Source: a virus (lineage: Duplodnaviria; Heunggongvirae; Uroviricota; Caudoviricetes). Taken from it: a DNA stretch of 12,227 nt. The position numbers and the translations under genes are program-made. Of this stretch, positions 2,278 to 12,227 are shown piece after piece; within the stretch, counting starts at the first letter, position 1, and each line of letters opens with the position of its first letter. Below the pieces are notes generated by a model. The model ran no database searches. It worked only from the letters and a program-made list of their open reading frames with translations, and was not told where the DNA came from. Where the stretch lies: positions 1 through 12,227 of IMG/VR virus record IMGVR_UViG_2671180903_000014; one strand, 5' to 3'.

Positions 2278-2559
2278 TTACCGCCGTAACCGCTCCGGCT
2301 TCTTCCAGTGGTACGTAATTTTCTCCGTTTCCCGATACAGTGCCACGCGGCGATTGTAGGCCAGCATTTCAAGAACGCGGATCCGTATGTTGCGCATATC
2401 CACATCATTAAGCTGGATACCATCACGGCGCATCACCTCAGCAACAACACGCGCATAATTTTCGGCTGTCACGCTGTCCGGCTGCGTGGCCTGTTCGTCA
2501 GTCTGCTGGCTGATTCCACCAGCACGGCGGATTAATCCCAGTATTTCGGCTTCTGTCAT
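2278..2559 (-). CDS. Hypothetical 93-aa protein
   Basis: ATG at 2559 with upstream GGGTG; charged, protein-like composition; the overlapping plus-strand ORF looks like antisense. No family recognised. Confidence 0.4.
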   Translation of the reverse strand: MTEAEILGLIRRAGGISQQTDEQATQPDSVTAENYARVVAEVMRRDGIQLNDVDMRNIRIRVLEMLAYNRRVALYRETEKITYHWKKPERLRR

Positions 2560-2592: not shown

Positions 2593-2795
2593 CGGGTCCT
2601 TCCTGGAATTATGGACCCGTTACGGGGCGGCGACCTCGCGGTTTTTATCTGTTTATGAAAATTTTCCGGCAAAAGTCAGATCCGTTCTTCTTCTCTGTAA
2701 CAGACTGTTTAACAATGAAAATATTAAAAAAAGAAAGGATCTGACACGAGGCATTTTAGCCAGAAAATGCCATTATCAGATCCTTTCTCATTTTT
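2593..2795 (+). other. Lambda-type cos site 'cos-A' (cosQ, cosN, cosB) in plus orientation
   Basis: GGGTCCTTCC..GTTACG|GGGCGGCGACCT|CGCGGTTTTT..TTATGAAAATTTTCCGG..CCGTTCTTCTTC closely follows the lambda right-end/left-end junction as recalled; the 12-nt cohesive-end sequence is at 2625-2636. Three R-site-like repeats GATCC(G/T)TTCT follow (2681-2695 plus, 2730-2745 inverted, 2777-2789 plus), with an A/T-rich IHF-like stretch between the first two. Confidence 0.8.
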
Positions 2796-2815: not shown

Positions 2816-3358
2816 TTACTCGCCTTTCTTCTGTAGCAACTTTTCCGGTACGTTTCCGGTTGTTTCTTTCAAGTAATCAGCCAGTATCTGTGGGAGGTTG
2901 TCGGCAACTCTGGCACTGGCATTACAGGCTTTAACCACTTCCCTTTTAAGCCTATCCAGCATGGCGGGGGTAATCTGTGGGAAGCTCCTTTGCATAGTAA
3001 GCGGGAGGCTGTCCATGATTGATGAAATCTGACTCGCCAGCTTTGAAAGCGCGTACAGGCAAAACTCAGTATCAATCACGTCACCGCGATCGCGCTCGTT
3101 TTTAAGTTCCTGCGCCTCCGCCTGTGCTGTCAGTAATCTGATCCTGACTCGTAAGAGTTCATCATCATCAATATCGCCTTTGTCGTTTGTAAGCTGGCTA
3201 ATTGCATTGTTAACCCTATTGTCTATCACGCTGGCAACATCATAAAACGCCTCACGGCCTTTACGTTCAACGGGAGTCACTCCCCACTTGTCGAACGCTG
3301 TCGCACTTACACGGCAGCTTTTCGCCATGTTTTTTTTGTTCATCAGGTGCGATTTCAT
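2816..3358 (-). CDS. Terminase small subunit, lambda Nu1-like
   Basis: Residues LLTAQAEAQELKNERDRGDVIDTEFCLYALSKLASQISSIMDSLPLTMQRSFP align with lambda Nu1 (LTRAQADAQELKNARDSAEVVETAFCTFVLSRIAGEIASILDGLPLSVQRRFP); N-terminus NKK..W..G..PV matches the Nu1 DNA-binding region. Start may be ATG 3358 or ATG 3343. Confidence 0.85.
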   Translation of the reverse strand: MKSHLMNKKNMAKSCRVSATAFDKWGVTPVERKGREAFYDVASVIDNRVNNAISQLTNDKGDIDDDELLRVRIRLLTAQAEAQELKNERDRGDVIDTEFCLYALSKLASQISSIMDSLPLTMQRSFPQITPAMLDRLKREVVKACNASARVADNLPQILADYLKETTGNVPEKLLQKKGE

Positions 3359-3399
3359 TAATACACCAACTTAATTACTGCTTCAGGTTGGTGTATTGT

Positions 3400-3534
3400 T
3401 TGCATCTTTCCCTTTTTATTCATAAAGATAGATCAAACAACGAAACCACCACCCCCCCCCTGAAAAGGCTCATAAATAGCGAAAAACCGCTAGGTCGCCG
3501 CCCCGTAACGGGCCATAATTCCAGGAAGGACCCG
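3400..3534 (-). other. Second lambda-type cos site 'cos-B' (cosQ, cosN, degenerate cosB) in minus orientation
   Basis: Minus strand reads GGGTCCTTCCTGGAATTATGGCCCGTTACG|GGGCGGCGACCT|AGCGGTTTTTCGCTATTTATGA and then diverges, including a G9 run; cohesive-end sequence at 3492-3503. The 53-bp stretch 3482-3534 is an inverted repeat of 2593-2646 with one mismatch and one 1-bp indel. Confidence 0.75.
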
Positions 3535-3535
3535 T

Positions 3536-3557
3536 AAAAAAGCCGGATTTCTCCGGC
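3536..3557 (-). terminator. Rho-independent terminator after the 137-aa gene
   Basis: Minus strand GCCGGAGAAATCCGGC hairpin followed by TTTTTT; 6 bp past the stop of the 137-aa ORF. Confidence 0.7.
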
Positions 3558-3563
3558 CTTGTC

Positions 3564-3977
3564 TCAGATGGTTTTCAGTATGCGATCGATGTCGCCGTCA
3601 TCGCCCTGGTTTCTGCCATCGTATGCCATGCCAGCTGATACGGCTTGCGGGCTGTGCATGTCCATAAAGTTTTCAAAGGCTGCGGTAAGTTCCGGCGCAA
3701 CCTTCGGACGTTCCTGCTCTATGGTCATGCTAAGGATGCTTTTAGCCGTACCAACATCGATACAAGGCACGTTTGCCATTGCACGCAACAGCGGCTGATA
3801 GTCTTTATGCTCATGAAGCGCCATAATCGCATCAGCGCGCGGCTTGTCCTGCTCTTCCAGTTTGTTTAGTTGATATACGGCCTCATAGGTTGATAAACCT
3901 CTGTCAGCCATTGCCCGCGCTTCGACTTTAAATTTACTCGCCAGCGGTAGCGTCATGATGCTTTCATTCGTTGCCAT
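3564..3977 (-). CDS. Hypothetical 137-aa acidic protein, last gene of the capsid operon
   Basis: Strong RBS (AGGGGGA) before ATG 3977; 12 bp after the gpD-like stop; followed by a terminator. No family recognised; not lambda FI or W by recalled sequence. Confidence 0.55.
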   Translation of the reverse strand: MATNESIMTLPLASKFKVEARAMADRGLSTYEAVYQLNKLEEQDKPRADAIMALHEHKDYQPLLRAMANVPCIDVGTAKSILSMTIEQERPKVAPELTAAFENFMDMHSPQAVSAGMAYDGRNQGDDGDIDRILKTI

Positions 3978-3989
3978 CGTTCCCCCTGC

Positions 3990-4325
3990 TTATCGGGCCA
4001 GCGGCTGAACGGATACGCCGGAACCCGCAAAGGCGGCGCATTTTTTCGCATCGGTGTCGACGCTCTCAGGCCAGTTAACGGCGGCAATATTGAATATCCC
4101 CGTCTTGTAACACTGTGCTGATTTCTGCTTTGACGTGCCCACAGGGTACGAGGTCAGATAAACAGCCTTGCCAGATTCCTGACCATCCCACGGCTTAAAC
4201 TCGCCATTGTCTGCCAGCATCAGCGGGGTAAATTCCTGAATAACGCCAGCATCAGCGGCAAAATGTACCAACGTCGTGGATACCTGCTGACTGCCTGCAA
4301 ATAACTCAATGTATGGAGTGTCCAT
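3990..4325 (-). CDS. Head decoration protein, lambda gpD family
   Basis: 111 aa; TPLML, WDG, YKTGIF, WPE and AFAG motifs align with lambda gpD (TPLML..WDG..YKSGTF..WPE..AFAG); RBS GGGGGGA. Confidence 0.85.
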   Translation of the reverse strand: MDTPYIELFAGSQQVSTTLVHFAADAGVIQEFTPLMLADNGEFKPWDGQESGKAVYLTSYPVGTSKQKSAQCYKTGIFNIAAVNWPESVDTDAKKCAAFAGSGVSVQPLAR

Positions 4326-4337
4326 AGAATCCCCCCG

Positions 4338-5393
4338 TTAACCAATTTTGACGGTAACAAATTTGCGAATATCTGCCGGTACCGGCTGCGGTGCACTGTG
4401 TGTCTGCACGTACTCAATCGCCGGATCGCCGTCCTCAATCCAGTTTTTCGGGTAAAACATGTTTTGTGTTGCGCCCGTTCTTACCGCTTCCTGATCCATT
4501 ATCGCACCATAGGCCACCAGCCCTTTATTGTTGGTGTTACCCAGGACCAGCAAATCAGGCTCAAGGAAATATTTTTCGGTACCATCGCTGTCAGTGTATT
4601 TGCCGGAATAGACGATAAGGGCCAGATCACCAAGATAGCCTTTAAAGCTCACCACTTCGCCCAGGTTTTTACAGGCCAGTTCGGCGGCGGATTCTGAACC
4701 ACGGGAAAGATCGTACAGCTCACGGAATTTTTTAAAGCTGCCTAATGTGCGCCATACCTCAGCGCCCATAATCATGACGTTTGCGGGGCAACCAGCCTGA
4801 TCAGCATAAAGCTCGATGTCATAGATTGGGTCGTGCATGTCTTTATCCTGCTCGGACCATTTTTTACCCTTGGCCTGCTCTATGATGCAGTTTTCCGGTA
4901 TTTTCCAGTCGATTTCATAGCGTTCTATGCCTTCGCCCTCAATGATGTTTTTTCCGGTCGTTACCGCATTCACCGCCAGCCATTCCACGCGTGCCTTAAT
5001 GGCGTTTATCTGGCGGCGCATGTTGCCAGTAATCAGGCGCATACGGCGATAGGTAGGGTCGTTAAGCTGTGCCGGATCTTCTCCAGCCATGCGCATGATG
5101 GTTTTCGTTGGATCGATTTCGTGCTTTGGCTTCATGTAGCCAGGTTTGATTGTGCTGGTTTCGTACCCTTTATCGCGCTGAACCTGGCTACCCACCATAG
5201 GCGAACAAAACGCCGACATGGTGACTTCTTCAATGTCCAGGGTATCCAGCATGATGTTTTGCGTGCTGAATGTCGCCACGTTCGGGAAAAACAGCGTGGT
5301 AAACAGAGGGCTGAATTTAAAATCCGCAATATCCCCGCGATTCAGGTACATGAAAAGCTGGTTAGTGTTAAGTGCCGTTGCTTTGCCTGCCAT
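4338..5393 (-). CDS. Major capsid protein, lambda gpE family
   Basis: 351 aa; collinear with lambda gpE (FKF.PLF..LFF, PGY.KPKHE, DP.YRR.R, RDK..DP..DIE.YA, YKG..GD.A.VYSG, VLGNT, YPKNW, GDPA.E); RBS GGGGGTGA. Confidence 0.9.
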   Translation of the reverse strand: MAGKATALNTNQLFMYLNRGDIADFKFSPLFTTLFFPNVATFSTQNIMLDTLDIEEVTMSAFCSPMVGSQVQRDKGYETSTIKPGYMKPKHEIDPTKTIMRMAGEDPAQLNDPTYRRMRLITGNMRRQINAIKARVEWLAVNAVTTGKNIIEGEGIERYEIDWKIPENCIIEQAKGKKWSEQDKDMHDPIYDIELYADQAGCPANVMIMGAEVWRTLGSFKKFRELYDLSRGSESAAELACKNLGEVVSFKGYLGDLALIVYSGKYTDSDGTEKYFLEPDLLVLGNTNNKGLVAYGAIMDQEAVRTGATQNMFYPKNWIEDGDPAIEYVQTHSAPQPVPADIRKFVTVKIG

Positions 5394-7149: not shown

Positions 7150-7350
7150 CAACCTCTCACTTTTTCGCCTCACTTTTTCAAGCGTCTCACTTCGTCGCAG
7201 TTGGGATTTTCGGTTTTTCTATGTGTGTGTTTCATAAGTATTTTTTTACCCCTCACTTTTGAGGATGTATACAGGTCGAAAAGTGAGGGAGAGCGGGCTA
7301 ATTTTGGCCCTCTTTCTATCCCCCTCGCTTTTGCTCCTCACTTTTATAGC
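7150..7350. repeat. Iteron array with a central A/T-rich stretch; candidate replication origin
   Basis: Seven copies of CCTCAC(T/G)TTT (7156, 7169, 7186, 7250, 7323, 7337 direct; 7279 inverted) flanking an A/T-rich stretch at 7201-7248, immediately 3' of the rep gene. Confidence 0.6.
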
Positions 7351-8743
7351 GGCGCTACATCATCCCCATCGATACGAATAACCCCATCTTTTTCCAGCTT
7401 GTACAGCCAGCGCCGGAAGTTTTTCATTTCATACCCCAGCTTTTTCATGTCATCACGTAACAGCGGGATCGTGCACTTGTCGCCGTTCTGTGTGCGTGAA
7501 CGGATGCACCCCCATAGCGCGGTATGGTTTTCCGTCTTGTTCCCTGCCTCCTCGATGCGCTCCAGTTCAACAGGAGGGCGCGGATCATCCACCACCACCA
7601 GCGACGTGATTAATTCACCGTCAGCGTCGGTAAAAAGCTCCACCACGCGTAAGTCATATGCGGCTTCTTTGAGTTCCTCCGCGTCCTTCATTTTGGTGCA
7701 TGAGATAACCAGCGCTTCGCTTCCTGCGTCCTCCCTGCGTATCCGGTATTCAGCATCCAGCGAAGCACGAAATGCACTGGAACCGCGCGCGCCTTTCGTC
7801 TCATCCTTGCCGGAATGGTGAACCACCAGCACCGTGGCCCCTGTGCGTCGTTTCAGTTCGTCACAACCACGGATAAACGCCCCATATCACGGGAATCATT
7901 TTCATCATTCCCACCAAAGCAACGCGCCAGCGTATCCAGAATAATCATGCGTACAGGTTTACCCGTTTCCCGCTCCACCTGACGGGCAGCGATAACCATT
8001 TCATCAACATCAAGCGGGGCAGCCGGAAAGATGGGGCGGTTTACCAGATACAGATTTTTCACCTGCTCATCGTGCACAACCTCCCAGGCTTTTACACGAC
8101 GCGGAACACCTATACCGCCTTCACCAACCACATAGAGAACCGCACCATGTGCAACCCTGCGGCCTCCCCACTGGCGACCAGTGGCAACATGGCACGCCCA
8201 CGATCCGGCAAGGAATGATTTATAGGACCCGCTAGCCCCGTATATGCTGCATAGCGATACCGCCGGAATAATCCCCTTAACCACGTAATCCAGTTGCGTG
8301 TCGTATCCGGTAGATCCAACGCTCATCGGTAGCGTGGTTTTTCGCTGGTGGTTTTTTTCTTCCGCCGGCTCTTTCCCGCGCACCCGTTCCAGGTATTCGC
8401 GCCAGTTCTCCCGCATATGGCTGTGCATCCCTTCGGGGTAATAATTCGCATCAGTTACACCCGCCGCCGCCAGCTTGTGCGCAATGGCATTAATATTTGA
8501 TGGCCTGATGTGGCCTGCCTTGTACAGCCGGACACAATAGCGCCCCTCGTCGATGATTCTCAGGTCTGCCAGTTCATCCAGTTGATCATCAGCCAGCACA
8601 ACGGGAGGCACATTATCGCCAGCCAGTCGCCCGTCCTGTTCCTGCCACTGTTTCGCATGTGCCCAGGCATCACTACCCGCAAAAATAATGACTTCGGTCA
8701 TCTTGTCGTAAGGCTGTTTTTTTAAGTTCGGTGCGCTTTTCAT
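7344..8743 (-). pseudogene. RepA-like AAA ATPase (RecA-fold replication helicase) split by a frameshift
   Basis: The upstream ORF (8743-7853) ends ..ILDTLARCFGGNDENDSRDMG; the downstream ORF continues in another frame with AFIRGCDELKRRTGATVLVVHHSGKDETKG. Joined, they give the typical DEN..M......L....G..VL.VHH..K motif. The frames meet in the C4/G4 run at 7880-7883; one extra G would restore a ~470-aa protein. Confidence 0.75.
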
Positions 8744-8761: not shown

Positions 8762-9208
8762 TTAAAATCTGGCCTGAACTGCCGGAGGCGTAGGCCATTC
8801 AATATCTGGCGCACTGGAGGTATCAACCAGCTCCAGTGCATCCAGATAATCCAGCCACAAATTATATTGCGCCAGTTCCTCACCTTTCAGACGACCAATA
8901 GCGGCTTTACCGGGCCATTGCTTACTGTTCATGTATTCGTTGGCCTGGTTAATTAGTAGCTGTCTTTCTGATTCAGTAATTTCAATAAGCTCTTCATGCG
9001 TGGGTGGAGGAATATCTGCCCACGCAGGCAGCCCATCATCTCCGGCAATACGGATTTTTCCTTGTGGCGGTTCAGCCATAAACTCACTGATAATATTTTG
9101 ATTTACTTCCTTAGCGTCTGATAAATCCCATCCCTCTGATTTATATTTATCAATCATATCCACAGGGAAAAAAGCATTATGCCTTGCGCTATAAACATAT
9201 TCGTTCAT
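8762..9208 (-). CDS. Tail fibre assembly protein (Tfa)
   Basis: N-terminus MNEYVYSARHNAFFP and C-terminus ..VDTSSAPDIEWPTPP match Tfa proteins (lambda Tfa ends ..VDTSTAPDIEWP); RBS AGGGTGA before ATG 9208. The longest ORF starts at a GTG (9217). Confidence 0.85.
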   Translation of the reverse strand: MNEYVYSARHNAFFPVDMIDKYKSEGWDLSDAKEVNQNIISEFMAEPPQGKIRIAGDDGLPAWADIPPPTHEELIEITESERQLLINQANEYMNSKQWPGKAAIGRLKGEELAQYNLWLDYLDALELVDTSSAPDIEWPTPPAVQARF

Positions 9209-9228
9209 ATAAATCACCCTGAATAAAA

Positions 9229-9642
9229 TTACTCACCAACAGCCCACCAACTGTAATTCATCGATACCGTGTCGCTGGTTGATGACGTTCTGTAAGCAGA
9301 ATTAAAGCCGGTTAACGTTGGGCCTTCTGCAGTCATCACGAACCCTCGCCCAGCGCCTAAAGGCGCACCGCCATCACCAGAATGAGTAAGCATGGCGCAG
9401 TCCGCTTTTTTGGGGAAAGGGATGCTGAATGTAATTCTCATTGTTTGCGTCGATAATGTCGGCGTAACCGCACCACGACCATATTGCAGGATTTTCCCGT
9501 TGGGTAATTTCATCCATCCATCACCACTGGCAAAAGAGGCCATGTCCGGTATCTGATTTTCCCCTGTCCCCACATCCCGTTTTGCCGCTTCTCCCAAACC
9601 AACGTTTATGAAAATGCAGAAATAACGAGCAAATGGCATCAT
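9229..9642 (-). pseudogene. Tail-fibre C-terminal variable segment without its constant N-terminal part (alternate cassette of an invertible segment)
   Basis: Lies between the crossover site and tfa, reading away from pin, as for the alternate Sv' cassette of the Mu G segment and the e14 P segment; no tail-fibre N-terminal domain upstream. Confidence 0.5.
9589..9614. other. Candidate Pin crossover site (pix-like)
   Basis: TTCTCCCAAACCAACGTTTATGAAAA matches the recalled hixL site TTCTTGAAAACCAAGGTTTTTGATAA at 20 of 26 positions; sits just upstream of pin inside the tail-fibre fragment. Confidence 0.55.
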
Positions 9643-9668
9643 TCCTGCTTTTGTCAGGGGGATCTACC

Positions 9669-10223
9669 ATGCTTATTGGCTATGTACGCGTATCAACAAA
9701 TGACCAGAACACAGATCTACAACGTAATGCGCTGAACTGTGCAGGATGCGAGCTGATTTTTGAAGACAAGATAAGCGGTACAAAGTCCGAAAGGCCGGGA
9801 CTGAAAAAACTGCTCAGGACATTATCGGCAGGTGACACGCTGGTGGTCTGGAAACTGGACCGGCTGGGGCGCAGTATGCGGCATCTTGTCGTGCTGGTGG
9901 AGGAGTTGCGCGAACGAGGCATCAACTTTCGTAGTCTGACGGATTCAATTGATACCAGTACCCCAATGGGGCGCTTTTTCTTTCATGTGATGGGTGCCCT
10001 GGCTGAAATGGAGCGTGAACTGATTGTTGAAAGAACAAAAGCTGGACTGGAAGCTGCTCGCGCACAGGGACGAATTGGTGGACGTCGTCCCAAACTTACA
10101 CCAGAACAATGGGAACAGGCCGGACGATTAATTGCATCAGGAGTTCCTCGCCAGAAGGTGGCGATTATCTATGATGTTGGTGTGTCAACTTTGTATAAGA
10201 GGTTTCCTGCAGGGGATAAATAA
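9669..10223 (+). CDS. pin: Serine DNA invertase Pin (Hin/Gin/Cin family)
   Basis: MLIGYVRVSTNDQNTDLQRNAL..VVWKLDRLGRS..GINFRSLTDSIDTS.PMGRFFFHVMGALAEMERELI..GRIGGR with C-terminal HTH; RBS AGGGGGA before ATG 9669. The listed ORF start at 9633 is an upstream extension. Confidence 0.92.
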   Translation: MLIGYVRVSTNDQNTDLQRNALNCAGCELIFEDKISGTKSERPGLKKLLRTLSAGDTLVVWKLDRLGRSMRHLVVLVEELRERGINFRSLTDSIDTSTPMGRFFFHVMGALAEMERELIVERTKAGLEAARAQGRIGGRRPKLTPEQWEQAGRLIASGVPRQKVAIIYDVGVSTLYKRFPAGDK

Positions 10224-10329
10224 AGTTAAAGACACTTTGTGTACAAAAGAAAGTAAAACAACAGCAACTTGTTGCAATTTTATCAATAAAAGTAGTATTG
10301 TCGTGAAAAATTGATTAAAGATTAATATT

Positions 10330-11163
10330 ATGCATGTTTTTGATAATAATGGAATTGAACTGAAAGCTGAGTGTTCGATAGGTGAAGAGGATGGTGTTTA
10401 TGGTCTAATCCTTGAGTCGTGGGGGCCGGGTGACAGAAACAAAGATTACAATATCGCTCTTGATTATATCATTGAACGGTTGGTTGATTCTGGTGTATCC
10501 CAAGTCGTAGTATATCTGGCGTCATCATCAGTCAGAAAACATATGCATTCTTTGGATGAAAGAAAAATCCATCCTGGTGAATATTTTACTTTGATTGGTA
10601 ATAGCCCCCGCGAGATACGCTTGAAGATGTGTGGTTATCAGGCTTATTTTAGTCGTACGGGGAGAAAGGAAATTCCTTCCGGCAATAGAACGAAACGAAT
10701 ATTGATAAATGTTCCAGGTATTTATAGTGACAGTTTTTGGGCGTCTATAATACGTGGAGAACTATCAGAGCTTTCACAGCCTACAGATGATGAATCGCTT
10801 CTGAATATGAGGGTTAGTAAATTAATTAAGAAAACGTTGGGTCAACCCGAGGGCTCCAGGAAACCAGTTGAGGTAGAAAGACTACAAAAAGTTTATGTCC
10901 GAGACCCGATGGTAAAAGCTTGGATTTTACAGCAAAGTAAAGGTATATGTGAAAACTGTGGTAAAAATGCTCCGTTTTATTTAAATGATGGAAACCCATA
11001 TTTGGAAGTGCATCATGTAATTCCCCTGTCTTCAGGTGGTGCTGATACAACAGATAACTGTGTTGCCCTTTGTCCGAATTGTCATAGAGAATTGCACTAT
11101 AGTAAAAATGCAAAAGAACTAATCGAGATGCTTTACGTTAATATAAACCGATTACAGAAATAA
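10330..11163 (+). CDS. mcrA: Type IV modification-dependent restriction endonuclease McrA (HNH)
   Basis: 277 aa; matches e14 McrA from memory, with C-terminal HNH motif HHVIPLSSGG..NCVALCPNCH; A/T-rich context typical of acquired DNA. Confidence 0.92.
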   Translation: MHVFDNNGIELKAECSIGEEDGVYGLILESWGPGDRNKDYNIALDYIIERLVDSGVSQVVVYLASSSVRKHMHSLDERKIHPGEYFTLIGNSPREIRLKMCGYQAYFSRTGRKEIPSGNRTKRILINVPGIYSDSFWASIIRGELSELSQPTDDESLLNMRVSKLIKKTLGQPEGSRKPVEVERLQKVYVRDPMVKAWILQQSKGICENCGKNAPFYLNDGNPYLEVHHVIPLSSGGADTTDNCVALCPNCHRELHYSKNAKELIEMLYVNINRLQK

Positions 11164-11397
11164 AATTGTTTATTAAAGTCACATTTAAGACGTAATACCC
11201 TACAGGGTAAAAATTTTCTCTGATCTTAACTTCTGCAAATGTTAACTGCTATTTTTATGCTAAAAATGGTTATCAAAACTCAAAAACACATGTTTATAAT
11301 CAATGAGTTATAGAAATGCTAAGGGCTAATGAGTTATATGCAAATTAGTAAAATTATGTTGCTATCTCAAATAGTTACGATTTAGTCATCTAACTAA

Positions 11398-11562
11398 TGC
11401 TGCGCCATATGGGCTGGACTGAAGCCGCAGACCTGATTGTTAAAGGTATGGAAGGCGCAATCAACGCCAAGACCGTAACCTATGACTTCGAACGTCTGAT
11501 GGAAGGCGCTAAACTGCTGAAATGTTCAGAGTTTGGTGACGCGATCATCAAAAATATGTAAT
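11398..11562 (+). pseudogene. icdC: Displaced 3' end of icd (isocitrate dehydrogenase), marking the e14-type attR
   Basis: In-frame translation [53 protein letters not shown] is the ICD C-terminus; no upstream icd body. Confidence 0.85.
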
Positions 11563-11584
11563 TACCACATGTGTTAAATATTAT

Positions 11585-11613
11585 AACGGGCGTATAACAC
11601 GCCCGTTGTTTTT
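11585..11613 (+). terminator. Rho-independent terminator after the icd remnant
   Basis: AACGGGCGT-ataac-ACGCCCGTT hairpin followed by GTTTTT, 23 bp past the stop. Confidence 0.6.
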
Positions 11614-11822
11614 ATAAATATGTTAACCGTTATAAAATAACGTATCAAAAGTCAAGTGAACACATTTCAAATATCAATTTGATCGTATTGGTCTGGTGAT
11701 TATTTATGGGGAGCAATAAAAAGACAGTATTAATCATCCATAGGGATAGTCTCTGCACTTTTATTTCCATTATGCTAATGCCTTACTGAATTATGAAGCA
11801 TTTTTTAAGCTCCCAACTTTAG

Positions 11823-12227
11823 CTAGATTAATGGTTTATTATTTTCTACATCTTCAATATATAAAAGCGTATTATCAATGGCGTAGTAACTGCGTTTGTT
11901 ATGATTAACATCAGTAACCCACCGGAAAACGCCAGCGCCTGCCAGTGTTGAACAGTATTCCCGAAATGTAGATTTTCCGCGAATATGAAGCAATGCGGCC
12001 TCTTTTATTTTAGCTGGGTTCTTGGTCGTACTAACTTTTAACAGGTTCCTGGTTCCTCTTAATAACAAAACCGTGTCATCGTGAGTAATAATTCTGATGT
12101 TATCCGTAGCCAGATAATAAATGTAATGTGCAATACGGTGATGTTTTAATTCTGAATAAAACCAGGAGAAGTTTTGCTCTTTTCTCACTTGCTCAAACAT
12201 CTTTTGAAAAACAACGACCTGATCCAT
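11823..12227 (-). CDS. DUF1398-family protein (YcgX/YbcV/YdfO-like)
   Basis: 134 aa; C-terminal AGVFRWVTD..YYAIDNTLLYIE resembles the prophage-flanking DUF1398 family from memory. Position next to icdC fits K-12 ycgX, but iraM is not seen between them. Confidence 0.55.
   Translation of the reverse strand: MDQVVVFQKMFEQVRKEQNFSWFYSELKHHRIAHYIYYLATDNIRIITHDDTVLLLRGTRNLLKVSTTKNPAKIKEAALLHIRGKSTFREYCSTLAGAGVFRWVTDVNHNKRSYYAIDNTLLYIEDVENNKPLI

What the first reader, a model, noticed from the sequence alone, without database searches (positions are those of the whole stretch)
3452..3460. Nine-base C/G homopolymer inside cos-B between cosN and the terS start
A mononucleotide run of nine replaces the part of cosB where lambda has R3 and the IHF site. 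Tracts this long are slippage-prone, so tract length could modulate cos-B function or terS expression.
Basis: seen in the sequence. Interest (0 to 1): 0.4.

Follow-up and report, generated by a model that had tools for sequence, protein, structure and literature searches.

The report
G-run in a satellite's packaging site
The nine-base run is real, but it is a rare point-mutation variant of a TGG-repeat DNA-packaging signal in a defunct E. coli phage satellite (a PICI, not a lambda prophage), and there is no evidence that it acts as a slippage switch.

Summary
The C9 run (G9 on the strand carrying cos and terS) is at 3452-3460 and is the only homopolymer of 9 or more bases in the window. This is cos1 of an EcCICFT073-family phage-inducible chromosomal island (PICI) next to phoQ. 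It is the subtype that carries its own Nu1-type small terminase where EcCICFT073 has Rpp, and a second, inverted cos2 lies downstream of terS. The run occupies bp 44-52 from the cohesive end, where helper-like sequence (cosQ, cosN, bp 1-45) gives way to island-specific cosB. It is the 5' part of a 15-bp G/T block, commonly GGG(TGG)4. That block aligns without gaps with the (GTT)n R3 site of phage N15, whose TerS DNA-binding domain is the closest relative of the island's (58%). Among 5,426 complete E. coli genomes the alleles are G3 (246), G6 (98) and G9 (4). They differ by T-to-G substitutions at constant length. Length variants are rare (G7, G13, loss of one or two TGG units; about 1-4% of sampled sites). 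No promoter is predicted near the tract, no allele changes predicted terS start accessibility, and no IHF site was found. The window's island is a truncated remnant. Verdict: an ordinary polymorphism in a known kind of site, with some specialist interest in the N15-like recognition site.

The parts
3452..3460 (-). The G9 run (C9 on the + strand), bp 44-52 of cos1
   Evidence: A rare allele: 4 of 5,426 complete E. coli genomes carry G9 with TTTT flanks, and none carries the window's exact 64-mer.
3446..3460 (-). 15-bp G/T block, bp 44-58 (GGGGGGGGGTGGTGG here; GGG(TGG)4 or GGGGGG(TGG)3 in most relatives)
   Evidence: All indels between cosN and terS in the alignment of 19 distinct cos1 sequences fall in bp 44-52.
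3441..3455 (-). Proposed R3-equivalent TerS-binding site (R3'), bp 49-63: GGGGTGGTGGTTTCG here, GTGGTGGTGGTTTTG in relatives
   Evidence: It aligns without gaps to the N15-type R3 of locus L027 and to N15. bp 50-62 is conserved in divergent relatives. It sits where lambda R3 (bp 50-65) and the proposed R3-PICI (bp 48-65) lie (PMC9026076). This is inferred and has not been shown experimentally.
3492..3503 (-). cosN cohesive-end 12-mer of cos1 (GGGCGGCGACCT, identical to lambda). bp 13 (3491) is a window-private C-to-A change next to the nick.
3527..3533 (-). cosQ-like GGGTCCT of cos1
   Evidence: Conserved in the alignment. It is part of inverted-repeat arm I2. The identification as cosQ rests on my own knowledge of lambda and on the description in PMC6739421.
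3536..3560 (-). Conserved hairpin followed by a T-run (terminator-like) just upstream of cosQ, after the 137-aa gene
   Evidence: 9-bp stem, GAAA loop, T6 tail; whole-fragment z-score -2.1. Conserved in most of the TerS-type islands and in EcCICFT073.
2816..3358 (-). Island terS: 180 aa, Nu1 family, with an N15-like DNA-binding domain and a PhiR5_1-like C-terminal region
   Evidence: Not an Rpp.
3360..3397 (.). Inverted repeat AATACACCAAC / GTTGGTGTATT with a 16-nt spacer, abutting the terS start. The distal arm read on the + strand (AGGTTGGTGTAT, 3385-3396) matches the N15 R3 12-mer at 10 of 12 positions. These may be R2'/R1'-like sites.
   Evidence: (I13). Only the ACACCAACCTGAA arm is conserved in divergent relatives.
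2594..2794 (+). cos2: a second complete cos in inverted orientation. cosQ is at 2594-2600 and the cohesive end at 2625-2636. Its lambda-architecture cosB has an R3-like site at 2675-2692, an inverted R2-like site at 2728-2745 and an R1-like site at 2776-2794 (motif CAGATCC).
   Evidence: (I1-I4, D4). It corresponds in position and orientation to EcCICFT073 cos2.
3564..5393 (-). Island morphogenesis genes upstream of cos1: E-like major capsid (4338-5393), D-like decoration protein (3990-4325), and a 137-aa protein with a weak match to the C-terminus of head maturation proteases (3564-3977)
2278..2559 (-). Conserved 93-aa gene of unknown function (phrog_1561), the last island gene before phoQ

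Best explanation
The run is a substitution-derived, rare allele at the 5' edge of the small-terminase recognition site (an R3 equivalent) in cos1 of a phage satellite.

The element is an EcCICFT073-family cos-PICI. It is the subtype that encodes a full-length Nu1-type TerS in the slot where EcCICFT073 has Rpp.

Inferred mechanism:
- The island TerS binds the G/T block (core bp 50-62, TGGTGGTGGTTTT) through an N15-like winged-helix domain.
- Its C-terminal region, which resembles that of PhiR5_1-type lambdoid phages, recruits the helper phage's large terminase.
- The helper terminase nicks the lambda-identical cosN 40-50 bp away, so island DNA is packaged into helper-derived particles.

The block is a G/T-only, 3-nt-periodic sequence. 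The T next to the 5' G run has been converted to G stepwise (T47G gives G6; T50G gives G9) without changing length. This preserves the cosN-to-R3 spacing that is critical in lambda.

T47G lies in a variable flank and is common. T50G removes the first of three conserved TGG units and is rare. It is probably neutral to mildly weakening for packaging.

The run is not a phase-variation switch for cos function or terS expression. In this window the island is a truncated, non-mobilisable remnant, so the allele most likely has no current function.

Shown here: the anatomy, the allele distribution and the homologies. Inferred: which bases TerS contacts, that the island TerS recruits helper TerL directly, and the effect of T50G.
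For: Element identity:
- It has the same site (next to phoQ) and gene order as EcCICFT073, with a 180-aa Nu1 homologue in place of the 144-aa RppA.
- Two cos sites and a cos1-specific cosB are published for the family (PMC6092414 and PMC6739421).
- TerS-encoding relatives, including the IHE3034 island (my L028), are on record.

Junction position: the inverted-repeat homology between cos1 and cos2 ends at 3459, which is bp 45.

Alleles:
- G3 is in 246 genomes, G6 in 98 and G9 in 4 of 5,426 genomes.
- All 13 metagenome and IMG/VR loci have the same block length.
- Non-standard spans appear in 7 of 180 evenly sampled rows overall, and in about 1 of 99 among close relatives.
- G9 occurs on two different flank backgrounds.

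R3 homology:
- N15 gp1 is the best phage match to the island TerS (46% overall).
- The DNA-binding domain is 58% identical to N15, against 27% to lambda and 23% to PhiR5_1. The C-terminal region is 51% identical to PhiR5_1, against 32% to both lambda and N15.
- L027 has an N15-identical recognition helix and the N15 R3 verbatim. It aligns without gaps to the PICI block, with 11 of 14 positions identical at bp 50-63.
- bp 50-62 is conserved in divergent relatives, whereas bp 44-49 varies.

Spacing: in lambda, R3 spans bp 50-65 with contacts at bp 55-63, and a 3-bp deletion between cosN and cosB is severely defective (PMC9026076; PMC4669245).

Expression: no promoter-like site lies near the tract, and the predicted terS start accessibility is the same for all alleles.

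Remnant status: the island is joined to e14 genes at about 8766, the helicase is split, and int and alpA are absent.
Against: - There is no experimental binding or packaging data for any TerS-type island. The only transfer tests gave near-zero frequencies and no helper was identified.
- The helix/site covariation rests on only two clades, so it amounts to one event.
- The block is the only indel hot spot in cos1. G7, G13, -3 and -6 variants exist, so some slippage does occur, and at a spacing-critical position it could matter.
- Other candidate TerS sites exist downstream: GTTGTTTG at bp 63-70, and the inverted repeat at bp 107-144 (window 3360-3397), one arm of which matches N15 R3 at 10 of 12 positions.
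- The window has two private substitutions in cos1 and none in 656 nt of flanking coding sequence. That hints at something more than neutral drift, although the numbers are small.
Confidence: 0.57

Rival explanations
1. The G/T block is only a length-constrained spacer. The island TerS actually recognises sequences further from cosN: GTTGTTTG at bp 63-70 and/or the CACCAACC/GTTGGTG inverted repeat at bp 107-144 (window 3360-3397). The G run would then be irrelevant apart from its length.
For: T-to-G changes at bp 47 and 50 are tolerated in apparently intact islands, and bp 44-49 is variable. The inverted-repeat arm AGGTTGGTGTAT matches the N15 R3 12-mer at 10 of 12 positions. Three GGTTGGTG-like motifs are arranged forward, inverted, forward, like lambda R3, R2 and R1. 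GTTGTTT also occurs in N15 R3.
Against: The gapless, equal-length alignment with L027 puts the N15 R3 exactly over the TGG block. The proximal inverted-repeat arm is not conserved in divergent relatives. The GGTTGGTG motif was derived from this same region, so the enrichment is partly circular. R3 in lambda, N15 and the proposed R3-PICI all lie at bp 48-65.
Confidence: 0.2
2. The homopolymer is a slippage-prone contingency tract whose length changes tune cos1 function (through cosN-to-R3 spacing) or terS expression.
For: G7 (L021) and G13 (L022) variants exist, and the tract region is the only indel hot spot between cosN and terS. Spacing here is critical in lambda. A 9-nt G run is long enough to slip at an appreciable rate (general knowledge).
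Against: Most islands have only G3 or G6 at this place, and G9 is found in 4 of 5,426 genomes. The main allelic series is by substitution at constant length. The +1 variants come from single assemblies and may be homopolymer sequencing errors. No promoter is predicted nearby, there is no predicted effect on the terS start, and no ORF contains the tract. The island in the window cannot be mobilised in any case.
Confidence: 0.08
3. T50G, together with the private bp 13 and bp 62 changes, is an inactivating lesion in cos1. It would be either selected for (a live cos site in an immobile chromosomal remnant invites terminase cutting of the chromosome) or accumulated by decay.
For: The island is truncated and its helicase is split. 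The window's only private substitutions in 861 nt (bp 13 and bp 62) lie in the 205-nt cos1 interval, and none lies in 656 nt of coding flanks. bp 62 is invariant and T50 is conserved in other islands. bp 13 flanks the nick site.
Against: There are only three changes (P of about 0.01-0.06 by length alone). G9 also occurs in other genomes whose islands I did not check for integrity. bp 13 is C or T in relatives, so it is not invariant. cos2 also carries window-specific differences, so the cos regions may simply be mosaic or recombinogenic.
Confidence: 0.12
4. The run length is a sequencing or assembly artefact of a homopolymer.
For: Homopolymers are error-prone on long-read platforms. The G7 and G13 variants in single assemblies may be such errors.
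Against: The G9 state at the same total block length is seen independently in four complete genomes. It keeps the 15-bp block length shared by nearly all relatives, which is what substitution predicts and miscounting does not.
Confidence: 0.03

Closest known systems
EcCICFT073 cos1/cos2 and the Rpp system (Fillol-Salom et al. 2018 ISME J, PMC6092414; 2019 Mol Cell, PMC6739421)
   Same: Same chromosomal site next to phoQ and the same gene order: PerC, capsid, decoration protein, 137-aa gene, cos1, packaging-specificity gene, inverted cos2, 93-aa gene. cosQ, cosN and about bp 1-43 are near-identical to lambda. cosB is island-specific and starts at about bp 44.
   Different: The specificity gene here is a 180-aa full-length Nu1 homologue, not the 144-aa RppA (BLASTP E=1.4). 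It retains a TerS C-terminal region, so it could recruit TerL directly instead of through a heterodimer with helper TerS. The cosB core is (TGG)n on the top strand at bp 47-58, whereas EcCICFT073 has ACCACCACC at bp 55-63, the same repeat on the other strand.
Phage N15 cos (single-R3 cosB) and gp1 TerS (Feiss et al. 2015, PMC4669245; Murialdo and Feiss 2022, PMC9026076)
   Same: The TerS DNA-binding domain is 58% identical and shares N15's indels relative to lambda. The site is a G/T-only, 3-nt-periodic R3 at the canonical distance from cosN (N15 bp 48-60 GAGGTTGTTGTTT; here bp 49-61). There is no IHF consensus.
   Different: The R3 units are GGT rather than GTT, and the recognition helix is SATAFDKW rather than SVQAFDKW. 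The cosN-to-terS distance is 146 bp against 89 bp, and it contains extra conserved sequence and an inverted repeat. The cohesive end is lambda's, not N15's. The TerS C-terminal region is PhiR5_1-like rather than N15- or lambda-like.
Lambda cosB (R3-I1-R2-R1)
   Same: It lies immediately right of cosN and upstream of the Nu1-type gene, with the R3 position at about bp 50-65. The island's cos2 has this full architecture.
   Different: cos1 has no lambda-type R sequences and no IHF site.
Slipped-strand contingency loci (phase-variable homopolymer tracts in Neisseria, Haemophilus, Campylobacter)
   Same: A G/C homopolymer of 9 bases in a functionally sensitive, spacing-dependent intergenic position. 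Rare plus or minus 1 variants exist.
   Different: The tract is not conserved as a homopolymer (most relatives have G3 or G6). The variation is mainly by substitution. The tract lies in no promoter or ORF, and there is no evidence of ON/OFF states.

Membership tests
Lambda-type cos site | 12-base cohesive-end sequence (cosN) matching lambda, with cosQ upstream at the lambda spacing | tested here: met
   GGGCGGCGACCT at 3503..3492 and GGGTCCT at 3533..3527. Phage matches cover only cosQ to about bp 45.
Lambda-type cos site | cosB made of R3, an IHF site, an inverted R2 and R1 | tested here: not met
   cos1 has no lambda-like R sequences and no IHF consensus within one mismatch. cos2 (2625-2794) does have three R-like repeats in this arrangement.
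EcCICFT073-family cos-PICI | Gene order and location: capsid, decoration protein, 137-aa gene, cos1, specificity gene, inverted cos2, 93-aa gene, adjacent to phoQ | tested here: met
EcCICFT073-family cos-PICI | Integrase, AlpA activator and primase/helicase replication module (needed for induction, excision and replication) | tested here: not met
   In the window the island stops at about 8766, where e14 genes begin. The helicase is split into two ORFs, and int and alpA are absent. Intact relatives have them. The window copy is a remnant.
EcCICFT073-family cos-PICI | Rpp protein that heterodimerises with helper TerS | tested here: not met
   The protein in the Rpp slot shows no similarity to RppA (E=1.4) and no PDB sequence hit to RppC. 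It is 35% identical to Nu1 over residues 6-166. This is the TerS-encoding subtype noted in PMC6092414.
EcCICFT073-family cos-PICI | Helper-phage-dependent high-frequency transfer through cos1 | not testable with these tools
   Published tests of TerS-type islands (IHE3034, 18098) gave at most 110 CFU, and no helper was identified.
N15-type cosB / TerS | TerS winged-helix domain of the N15 type | tested here: met
   Residues 1-50 are 58% identical to N15 gp1 with shared indels, against 27% to lambda.
N15-type cosB / TerS | R3 at about bp 48-60 with the N15 sequence GAGGTTGTTGTTT | tested here: inconclusive
   The position is met and the sequence is related but not identical: GTGGTGGTGGTTT in relatives and GGGGTGGTGGTTT in the window. 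The link is a gapless alignment through L027. Binding was not tested.
N15-type cosB / TerS | A single R sequence, with no further R sites and no IHF site | tested here: inconclusive
   No IHF consensus was found. However, an inverted repeat with R3-like arms lies at bp 107-144, window 3360-3397.
Slipped-strand phase-variable tract | Frequent plus or minus 1 repeat-unit length polymorphism among close relatives or within cultures | tested here: inconclusive
   Across genomes about 1% of close relatives and about 4% of all sampled sites have a non-standard length. +1 was seen in two assemblies (L021, L022). No read-level data were available.
Slipped-strand phase-variable tract | Tract placed in a promoter spacer or ORF so that its length sets expression | tested here: not met
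   No sigma-70-like site near the tract, no ORF contains it, and predicted terS start accessibility is unchanged across alleles.
Slipped-strand phase-variable tract | The homopolymer is maintained as such across the family | tested here: not met
   G3 in 246 genomes, G6 in 98, G9 in 4.

The most novel reading that the evidence does not exclude
The G/T trinucleotide block is an evolvable specificity element. Because it is a microsatellite-like TerS-binding site at a spacing-critical distance from cosN, T-to-G conversions and TGG-unit or single-G slippage could shift the binding register or affinity. Related satellites could then diversify packaging specificity, avoid cross-packaging or helper counter-measures, or silence cos1 reversibly. 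The mirror-image (CCA)n core in Rpp-type islands would then reflect a shared, orientation-flippable recognition code for N15-like and Rpp winged-helix domains.
Probability: 0.08. Interest if true: 0.6.

Novelty: new member of a known kind. Interest (0 to 1): 0.27.

Why it matters
The run itself matters little. It is a rare allele in a dead copy of a known satellite family.

The context has some value for people who study DNA packaging and phage satellites. The TerS-encoding subtype of the EcCICFT073 family (present in O157:H7, O55:H7, O145, O26, O103 and ExPEC strains; about 780-840 of 5,426 complete genomes match the cos1 probes) has no defined helper or recognition site in the papers I read. 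The analysis here gives a concrete, testable proposal: an N15-like winged-helix TerS reads a (TGG)n R3 at bp 49-63 and delivers a helper TerL to a lambda-type cosN without Rpp.

The natural allelic series (G3, G6, G9, G13, -3, -6) is a ready-made mutant set for testing which bases and what spacing matter.

Tried and rejected
1. Lambdoid prophage context. Rejected because the neighbours are PICI genes and phoQ.
2. The 'terS' is an Rpp. Rejected, and RppA and RppC are 144 and 153 aa.
3. My own interim idea that the block is an extra 10-bp (one helical turn) spacer in front of an N15-like R3 at bp 57-70 (after). Rejected once L027 gave a gapless, equal-length alignment that places N15's R3 over the TGG block.
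4. An IHF site in cos1. None within one mismatch of WATCAANNNNTTR.
5. A promoter at or near the tract. None predicted.
6. An mRNA-structure effect on terS. None predicted.
7. Rfam, tRNA and tandem-repeat scans. Nothing found. TRF does not score the TGG block in the window.
8. The genome contigs pattern scan returned 0 loci, and the metagenome scan only 3. Allele counts were therefore obtained with allele-specific 64-mer probes against complete E. coli genomes.
9. A G-quadruplex role. I considered it but did not pursue it, because only two-tetrad structures are possible, the site acts as duplex DNA, and these tools offer no test.
10. A helper phage with an identical cos2 cosB. Not found; the best match is PhiR5_1 at 78%.
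11. Whether T-to-G changes happen only at the run boundary. I could not test this rigorously, because the identity bands cannot separate the alternative single-T alleles.

Full report
**Observation**

Window 3452-3460 is nine consecutive C on the + strand. On the - strand, which carries the cos site and terS, this reads as G9. It is the only homopolymer of 9 or more bases in the window and the only G or C run of 7 or more. A first-order Markov model of the window expects about 0.06 such C or G runs. The lambda cohesive-end 12-mer GGGCGGCGACCT lies at 3503..3492 on the - strand. The run is therefore bp 44-52 counted from the left cohesive end, and the annotated terS start at 3358 is bp 146.

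**Context: a phage satellite, not a lambda-like prophage**

On the element's coding strand (the window's - strand), the genes upstream of cos are:
- an E-like major capsid protein;
- a D-like head decoration protein;
- a 137-aa protein with a weak match to the C-terminus of head maturation proteases.

A 180-aa Nu1-family terS, a 93-aa gene and then phoQ lie downstream of cos. There is no terL, portal, protease or tail gene.

In E. coli O55:H7 CB9615 the same module closes an island of about 11 kb between roxA and phoQ. That island carries int, an HTH regulator, Icd-like genes, a RepA helicase, SSB and PerC. E. coli CFT073 has the same layout at the same site. This is EcCICFT073, the prototype Gram-negative cos-PICI. 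The one difference is that a 144-aa gene, c1503 (rppA), sits where the window has terS.

The literature already establishes the following for this family:
[quoted passage not shown] Both have phage-like cosQ and cosN and a non-phage cosB.
- cos1 is needed for transfer, and its cosB is what the RppA-TerS complex recognises (PMC6092414 and PMC6739421).
- Some relatives, including the IHE3034 island (my locus L028), "encode TerS". They transferred only at trace levels, and no helper was identified.

**The second cos site**

The window also contains a complete second cos. Its cosQ is at 2594-2600 and its cohesive end at 2625-2636, on the + strand. It therefore points back into the 3' end of terS. 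Its cosB has three R-like repeats (motif CAGATCC) in the lambda arrangement of forward, inverted, forward.

The two cos sites form an inverted repeat with arms 2593-2669 and 3459-3534, 85-96% complementary. The homology ends at 3459, which is bp 45. So the G run begins exactly where helper-like sequence stops and cos1-specific cosB starts. Phage genomes in the collection match cos1 only from cosQ to about bp 45.

**The specificity protein**

The window's TerS is 35% identical to lambda Nu1 over residues 6-166. It shows no similarity to RppA (E=1.4) and has no PDB sequence match to RppC or to the Nu1 DNA-binding domain. Its best phage relative is N15 gp1, at 46% identity. By region it is chimeric:

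| TerS region | N15 gp1 | lambda Nu1 | PhiR5_1 |
|---|---|---|---|
| Residues 1-50 (winged-helix DNA-binding domain) | 58% | 27% | 23% |
| Residues 126-166 (region that binds TerL in lambda, per PMC9026076) | 32% | 32% | 51% |

The N-terminal domain also shares N15's indels relative to lambda. PhiR5_1, a lambdoid E. coli phage, is also the best phage match to cos2 (78%).

**What the tract is**

In relatives, the 15 bp between GAGCCTTTTCA and TTTTG read GGGTGGTGGTGGTGG (G3) or GGGGGGTGGTGGTGG (G6). The window reads GGGGGGGGGTGGTGG.

Allele-specific 64-mers, for which only an exact match scores 99% or more, gave these counts among 5,426 complete E. coli genomes:

| Allele | Genomes |
|---|---|
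| G3 (O157:H7, O55:H7, O145:H28 and others) | 246 |
| G6 | 98 |
| G9 with TTTT flank | 4 |
| Window's own variant, G9 with TTTC | 0 |

- The four G9 genomes include 96_1414B and 96_1414P, apparently two variants of one strain.
- All 13 loci recovered from metagenomes and IMG/VR with a variable-gap pattern have the same interval length.
- The main allelic series is therefore T47G and then T50G at constant length. It is not slippage.
- G9 occurs on two different flank backgrounds. L016 matches a G6 group whose cohesive end is GGGCGGAGACCT. The window's flanks resemble those of L017, L018, L024 and L028. So G9 arose at least twice.

Length variants do exist:
- G7 (L021, +1);
- G13-TGG (L022, +1);
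- loss of one TGG unit (L020, L023);
- loss of two TGG units (L019).

In an alignment of 19 distinct cos1 sequences, every indel between cosN and terS falls in bp 44-52. These variants are rare. Seven of 180 evenly sampled rows have a non-standard span, and about 1 of 99 among close relatives. The two +1 cases come from single assemblies, so homopolymer sequencing error cannot be excluded.

**Why I think the block is the R3 equivalent**

Murialdo and Feiss (PMC9026076) summarise the relevant background:
- Lambda R3 spans bp 50-65, with TerS contacts at bp 55-63.
- N15's single R3 spans bp 48-60.
- Even a 3-bp deletion between cosN and cosB is severely defective in lambda.
- Rpp-type PICIs have a proposed R3 at bp 48-65, with an invariant bp 55-63.

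I computed that invariant core in EcCICFT073 as ACCACCACC.

Locus L027 (E. coli A34) supplies the link. Its TerS recognition helix is identical to N15's (SVQAFDKW). Its cosB contains N15's R3 verbatim (GGTTGTTGTTTAA). Its bp 43-70 interval has exactly the same length as in the PICI sites. The two therefore align without gaps: L027 bp 50-63 TGGTTGTTGTTTAA against PICI TGGTGGTGGTTTTG, with 11 of 14 positions identical.

Islands carrying the (TGG)n version have the helix SATAFDKW instead. Across divergent relatives bp 50-62 (TGGTGGTGGTTTT) is conserved, while bp 44-49 varies (GGGTGG, GGGGGG, GGGGAC, GGGTGC, GGTTGG).

So the G9 run covers the variable 5' flank (bp 44-49) plus the first three positions of the conserved core. 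T47G lies in the variable flank and is common. T50G removes the first of three conserved TGG units and is rare. The lambda-equivalent contact zone, bp 55-63, is untouched by the run. The window does, however, carry a private T62C change within that zone.

**How it most likely works (inferred)**

- The island TerS binds R3' through its N15-like domain.
- Its PhiR5_1-like C-terminal region recruits a helper TerL to the lambda-identical cosN.
- This gives island-specific packaging without Rpp.
- cos2 resembles a helper-type cos with phage-style R sites. By analogy with EcCICFT073 it may be dispensable or helper-specific.

The G run is a by-product of mutation in a G/T-only, 3-nt-periodic site. 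Each T next to the growing G run is converted in turn. The constant length fits a strict spacing constraint.

I found nothing to connect the tract with terS expression:
- no sigma-70-like site lies nearby;
- a conserved hairpin with a T-run sits upstream of cosQ;
- the predicted accessibility of the terS start is 0.107-0.108 for G3, G6, G8, G9, G10 and G12;
- no IHF consensus occurs in cos1;
- there are no Rfam, tRNA or TRF hits.

**State of this particular copy**

Window 5400-8765 matches PICI replication genes at 99.9%. At about 8766 the sequence joins e14-prophage genes: tail-fibre assembly, a tail-fibre C-terminus, pinE, mcrA and ycgX. The RepA helicase is split into two ORFs, and there is no int or alpA. 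No complete genome holds this junction. The island here is an immobile remnant.

Within an 861-nt segment, the window's only private substitutions are bp 13 (next to the nick) and bp 62. Both lie in the 205-nt cos1 interval, and none lies in 656 nt of flanking coding sequence. This fits decay or inactivation of cos1, but the numbers are small.

**Rivals**

- The block is a pure spacer and the true TerS sites lie downstream. An inverted-repeat arm matches N15 R3 at 10 of 12 positions. This is less likely given the L027 alignment and the poor conservation of the other arm.
- The tract is a slippage switch. This is weakly supported at best.
- T50G and the private changes are an inactivating lesion in a dead island. 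This is possible.
- The run length is a sequencing artefact. This is unlikely, because G9 at constant block length recurs in independent genomes.

**Comparison and novelty**

The element belongs to a known family, and its TerS-encoding subtype is on record. The tract is one rare allele of its cos1 recognition region. I did not find the following described in the papers I read:
- the N15-like nature of the TerS domain and of the R3 in this subtype;
- the helix/site covariation;
- the mirror-image repeat core, (TGG)n here against (CCA)n in Rpp-type islands.

These are modestly interesting and directly testable.

**Verdict**

The finding is ordinary, with a useful by-product for packaging-specificity work.

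Noticed in passing
window 2594-2794 (+), paired with 3459-3534: A second complete cos (cos2) in inverted orientation downstream of terS. It has cosQ, a lambda-identical cohesive end, and a lambda-architecture cosB with three CAGATCC-type R repeats. Relatives carry either this type or a CATGTCGG type at the same place (L004, L013). EcCICFT073's cos2 has CATGTCCGG repeats. Two cos sites are published for EcCICFT073, but I did not see the phage-like R-site architecture of cos2 noted in the papers I read.
   Followed up: partly
window ~8766 (junction); 8762-12227: The PICI is fused directly to e14-prophage genes: tail-fibre assembly, a gp53-like tail-fibre C-terminus, the pinE invertase, mcrA and ycgX. 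The int, alpA, Icd and DUF4222 part is missing. No complete E. coli genome holds this junction. An inversion between the PICI and e14 spanning phoQ to icd would give exactly this order. Alternatively it is an assembly chimera.
   Followed up: partly
window 7344-8743 (-): The RepA-family helicase (about 466 aa and intact in relatives) is split into 296-aa and 162-aa ORFs, despite 99.9% DNA identity to intact copies. It is presumably a nonsense or frameshift pseudogene.
   Followed up: no
window 3330-3337 (T8 on +, A8 in terS codons 7-10): A second homopolymer inside the terS 5' end (AAC AAA AAA AAC). Two IMG/VR loci (L013, L014) have A7, which frameshifts the annotated ORF. This is either real inactivation or sequencing error.
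   Followed up: no
L031 (CFT073) cos1 bp 53-65, compared with window 3446-3457: Rpp-type EcCICFT073 has ACACCACCACCAC at bp 53-65, including the published invariant bp 55-63 ACCACCACC. That is the reverse complement of the GGTGGTGGTGGT repeat that TerS-type islands carry on the top strand at bp 48-59 (G3 allele, bp numbering in CB9615 cos1). The same trinucleotide repeat sits at nearly the same distance from cosN but on opposite strands. Unexplained.
   Followed up: partly
L006, L007, L011, L012, L016, L021 (cos1 cohesive end); L020, L026, L027: There are natural variants of the cohesive-end sequence within the family: GGGCGGAGACCT in one group of closely similar loci, GGGCGTCGACCT in L020, GGGCGTCAGGCG in L026 and GGGTCGGCAGAC in L027. 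All are combined with a related cosB, which suggests modular exchange of cosN and cosB.
   Followed up: no
window 3491 and 3442; also 2625-2700: Window-private substitutions sit at cos1 bp 13 (C to A, beside the nick site) and bp 62 (T to C, invariant elsewhere). In cos2, two differences from the six CAGATCC-type relatives with cos2 available (GAAAAT for GAGAAT; CCGTTC for CCGATC) make it more lambda-like.
   Followed up: partly
window 3536-3560 (-): A conserved 9-bp-stem hairpin with a GAAA loop and a T6 tail lies immediately upstream of cosQ, in most TerS-type islands and in the Rpp-type island. It looks like an intrinsic terminator between the morphogenesis genes and cos/terS. That leaves open how terS or rpp is transcribed. 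The consensus terminator scan did not list it.
   Followed up: partly
window 3564-3977 (-): The conserved 137-aa protein (phrog_1999; annotated 'head-tail connector' in some genomes) has a weak match to the C-terminal part of head maturation protease profiles (phrog_53 positions 496-567). This suggests a scaffold-like (Nu3-like) role alongside the island's capsid and decoration homologues.
   Followed up: no
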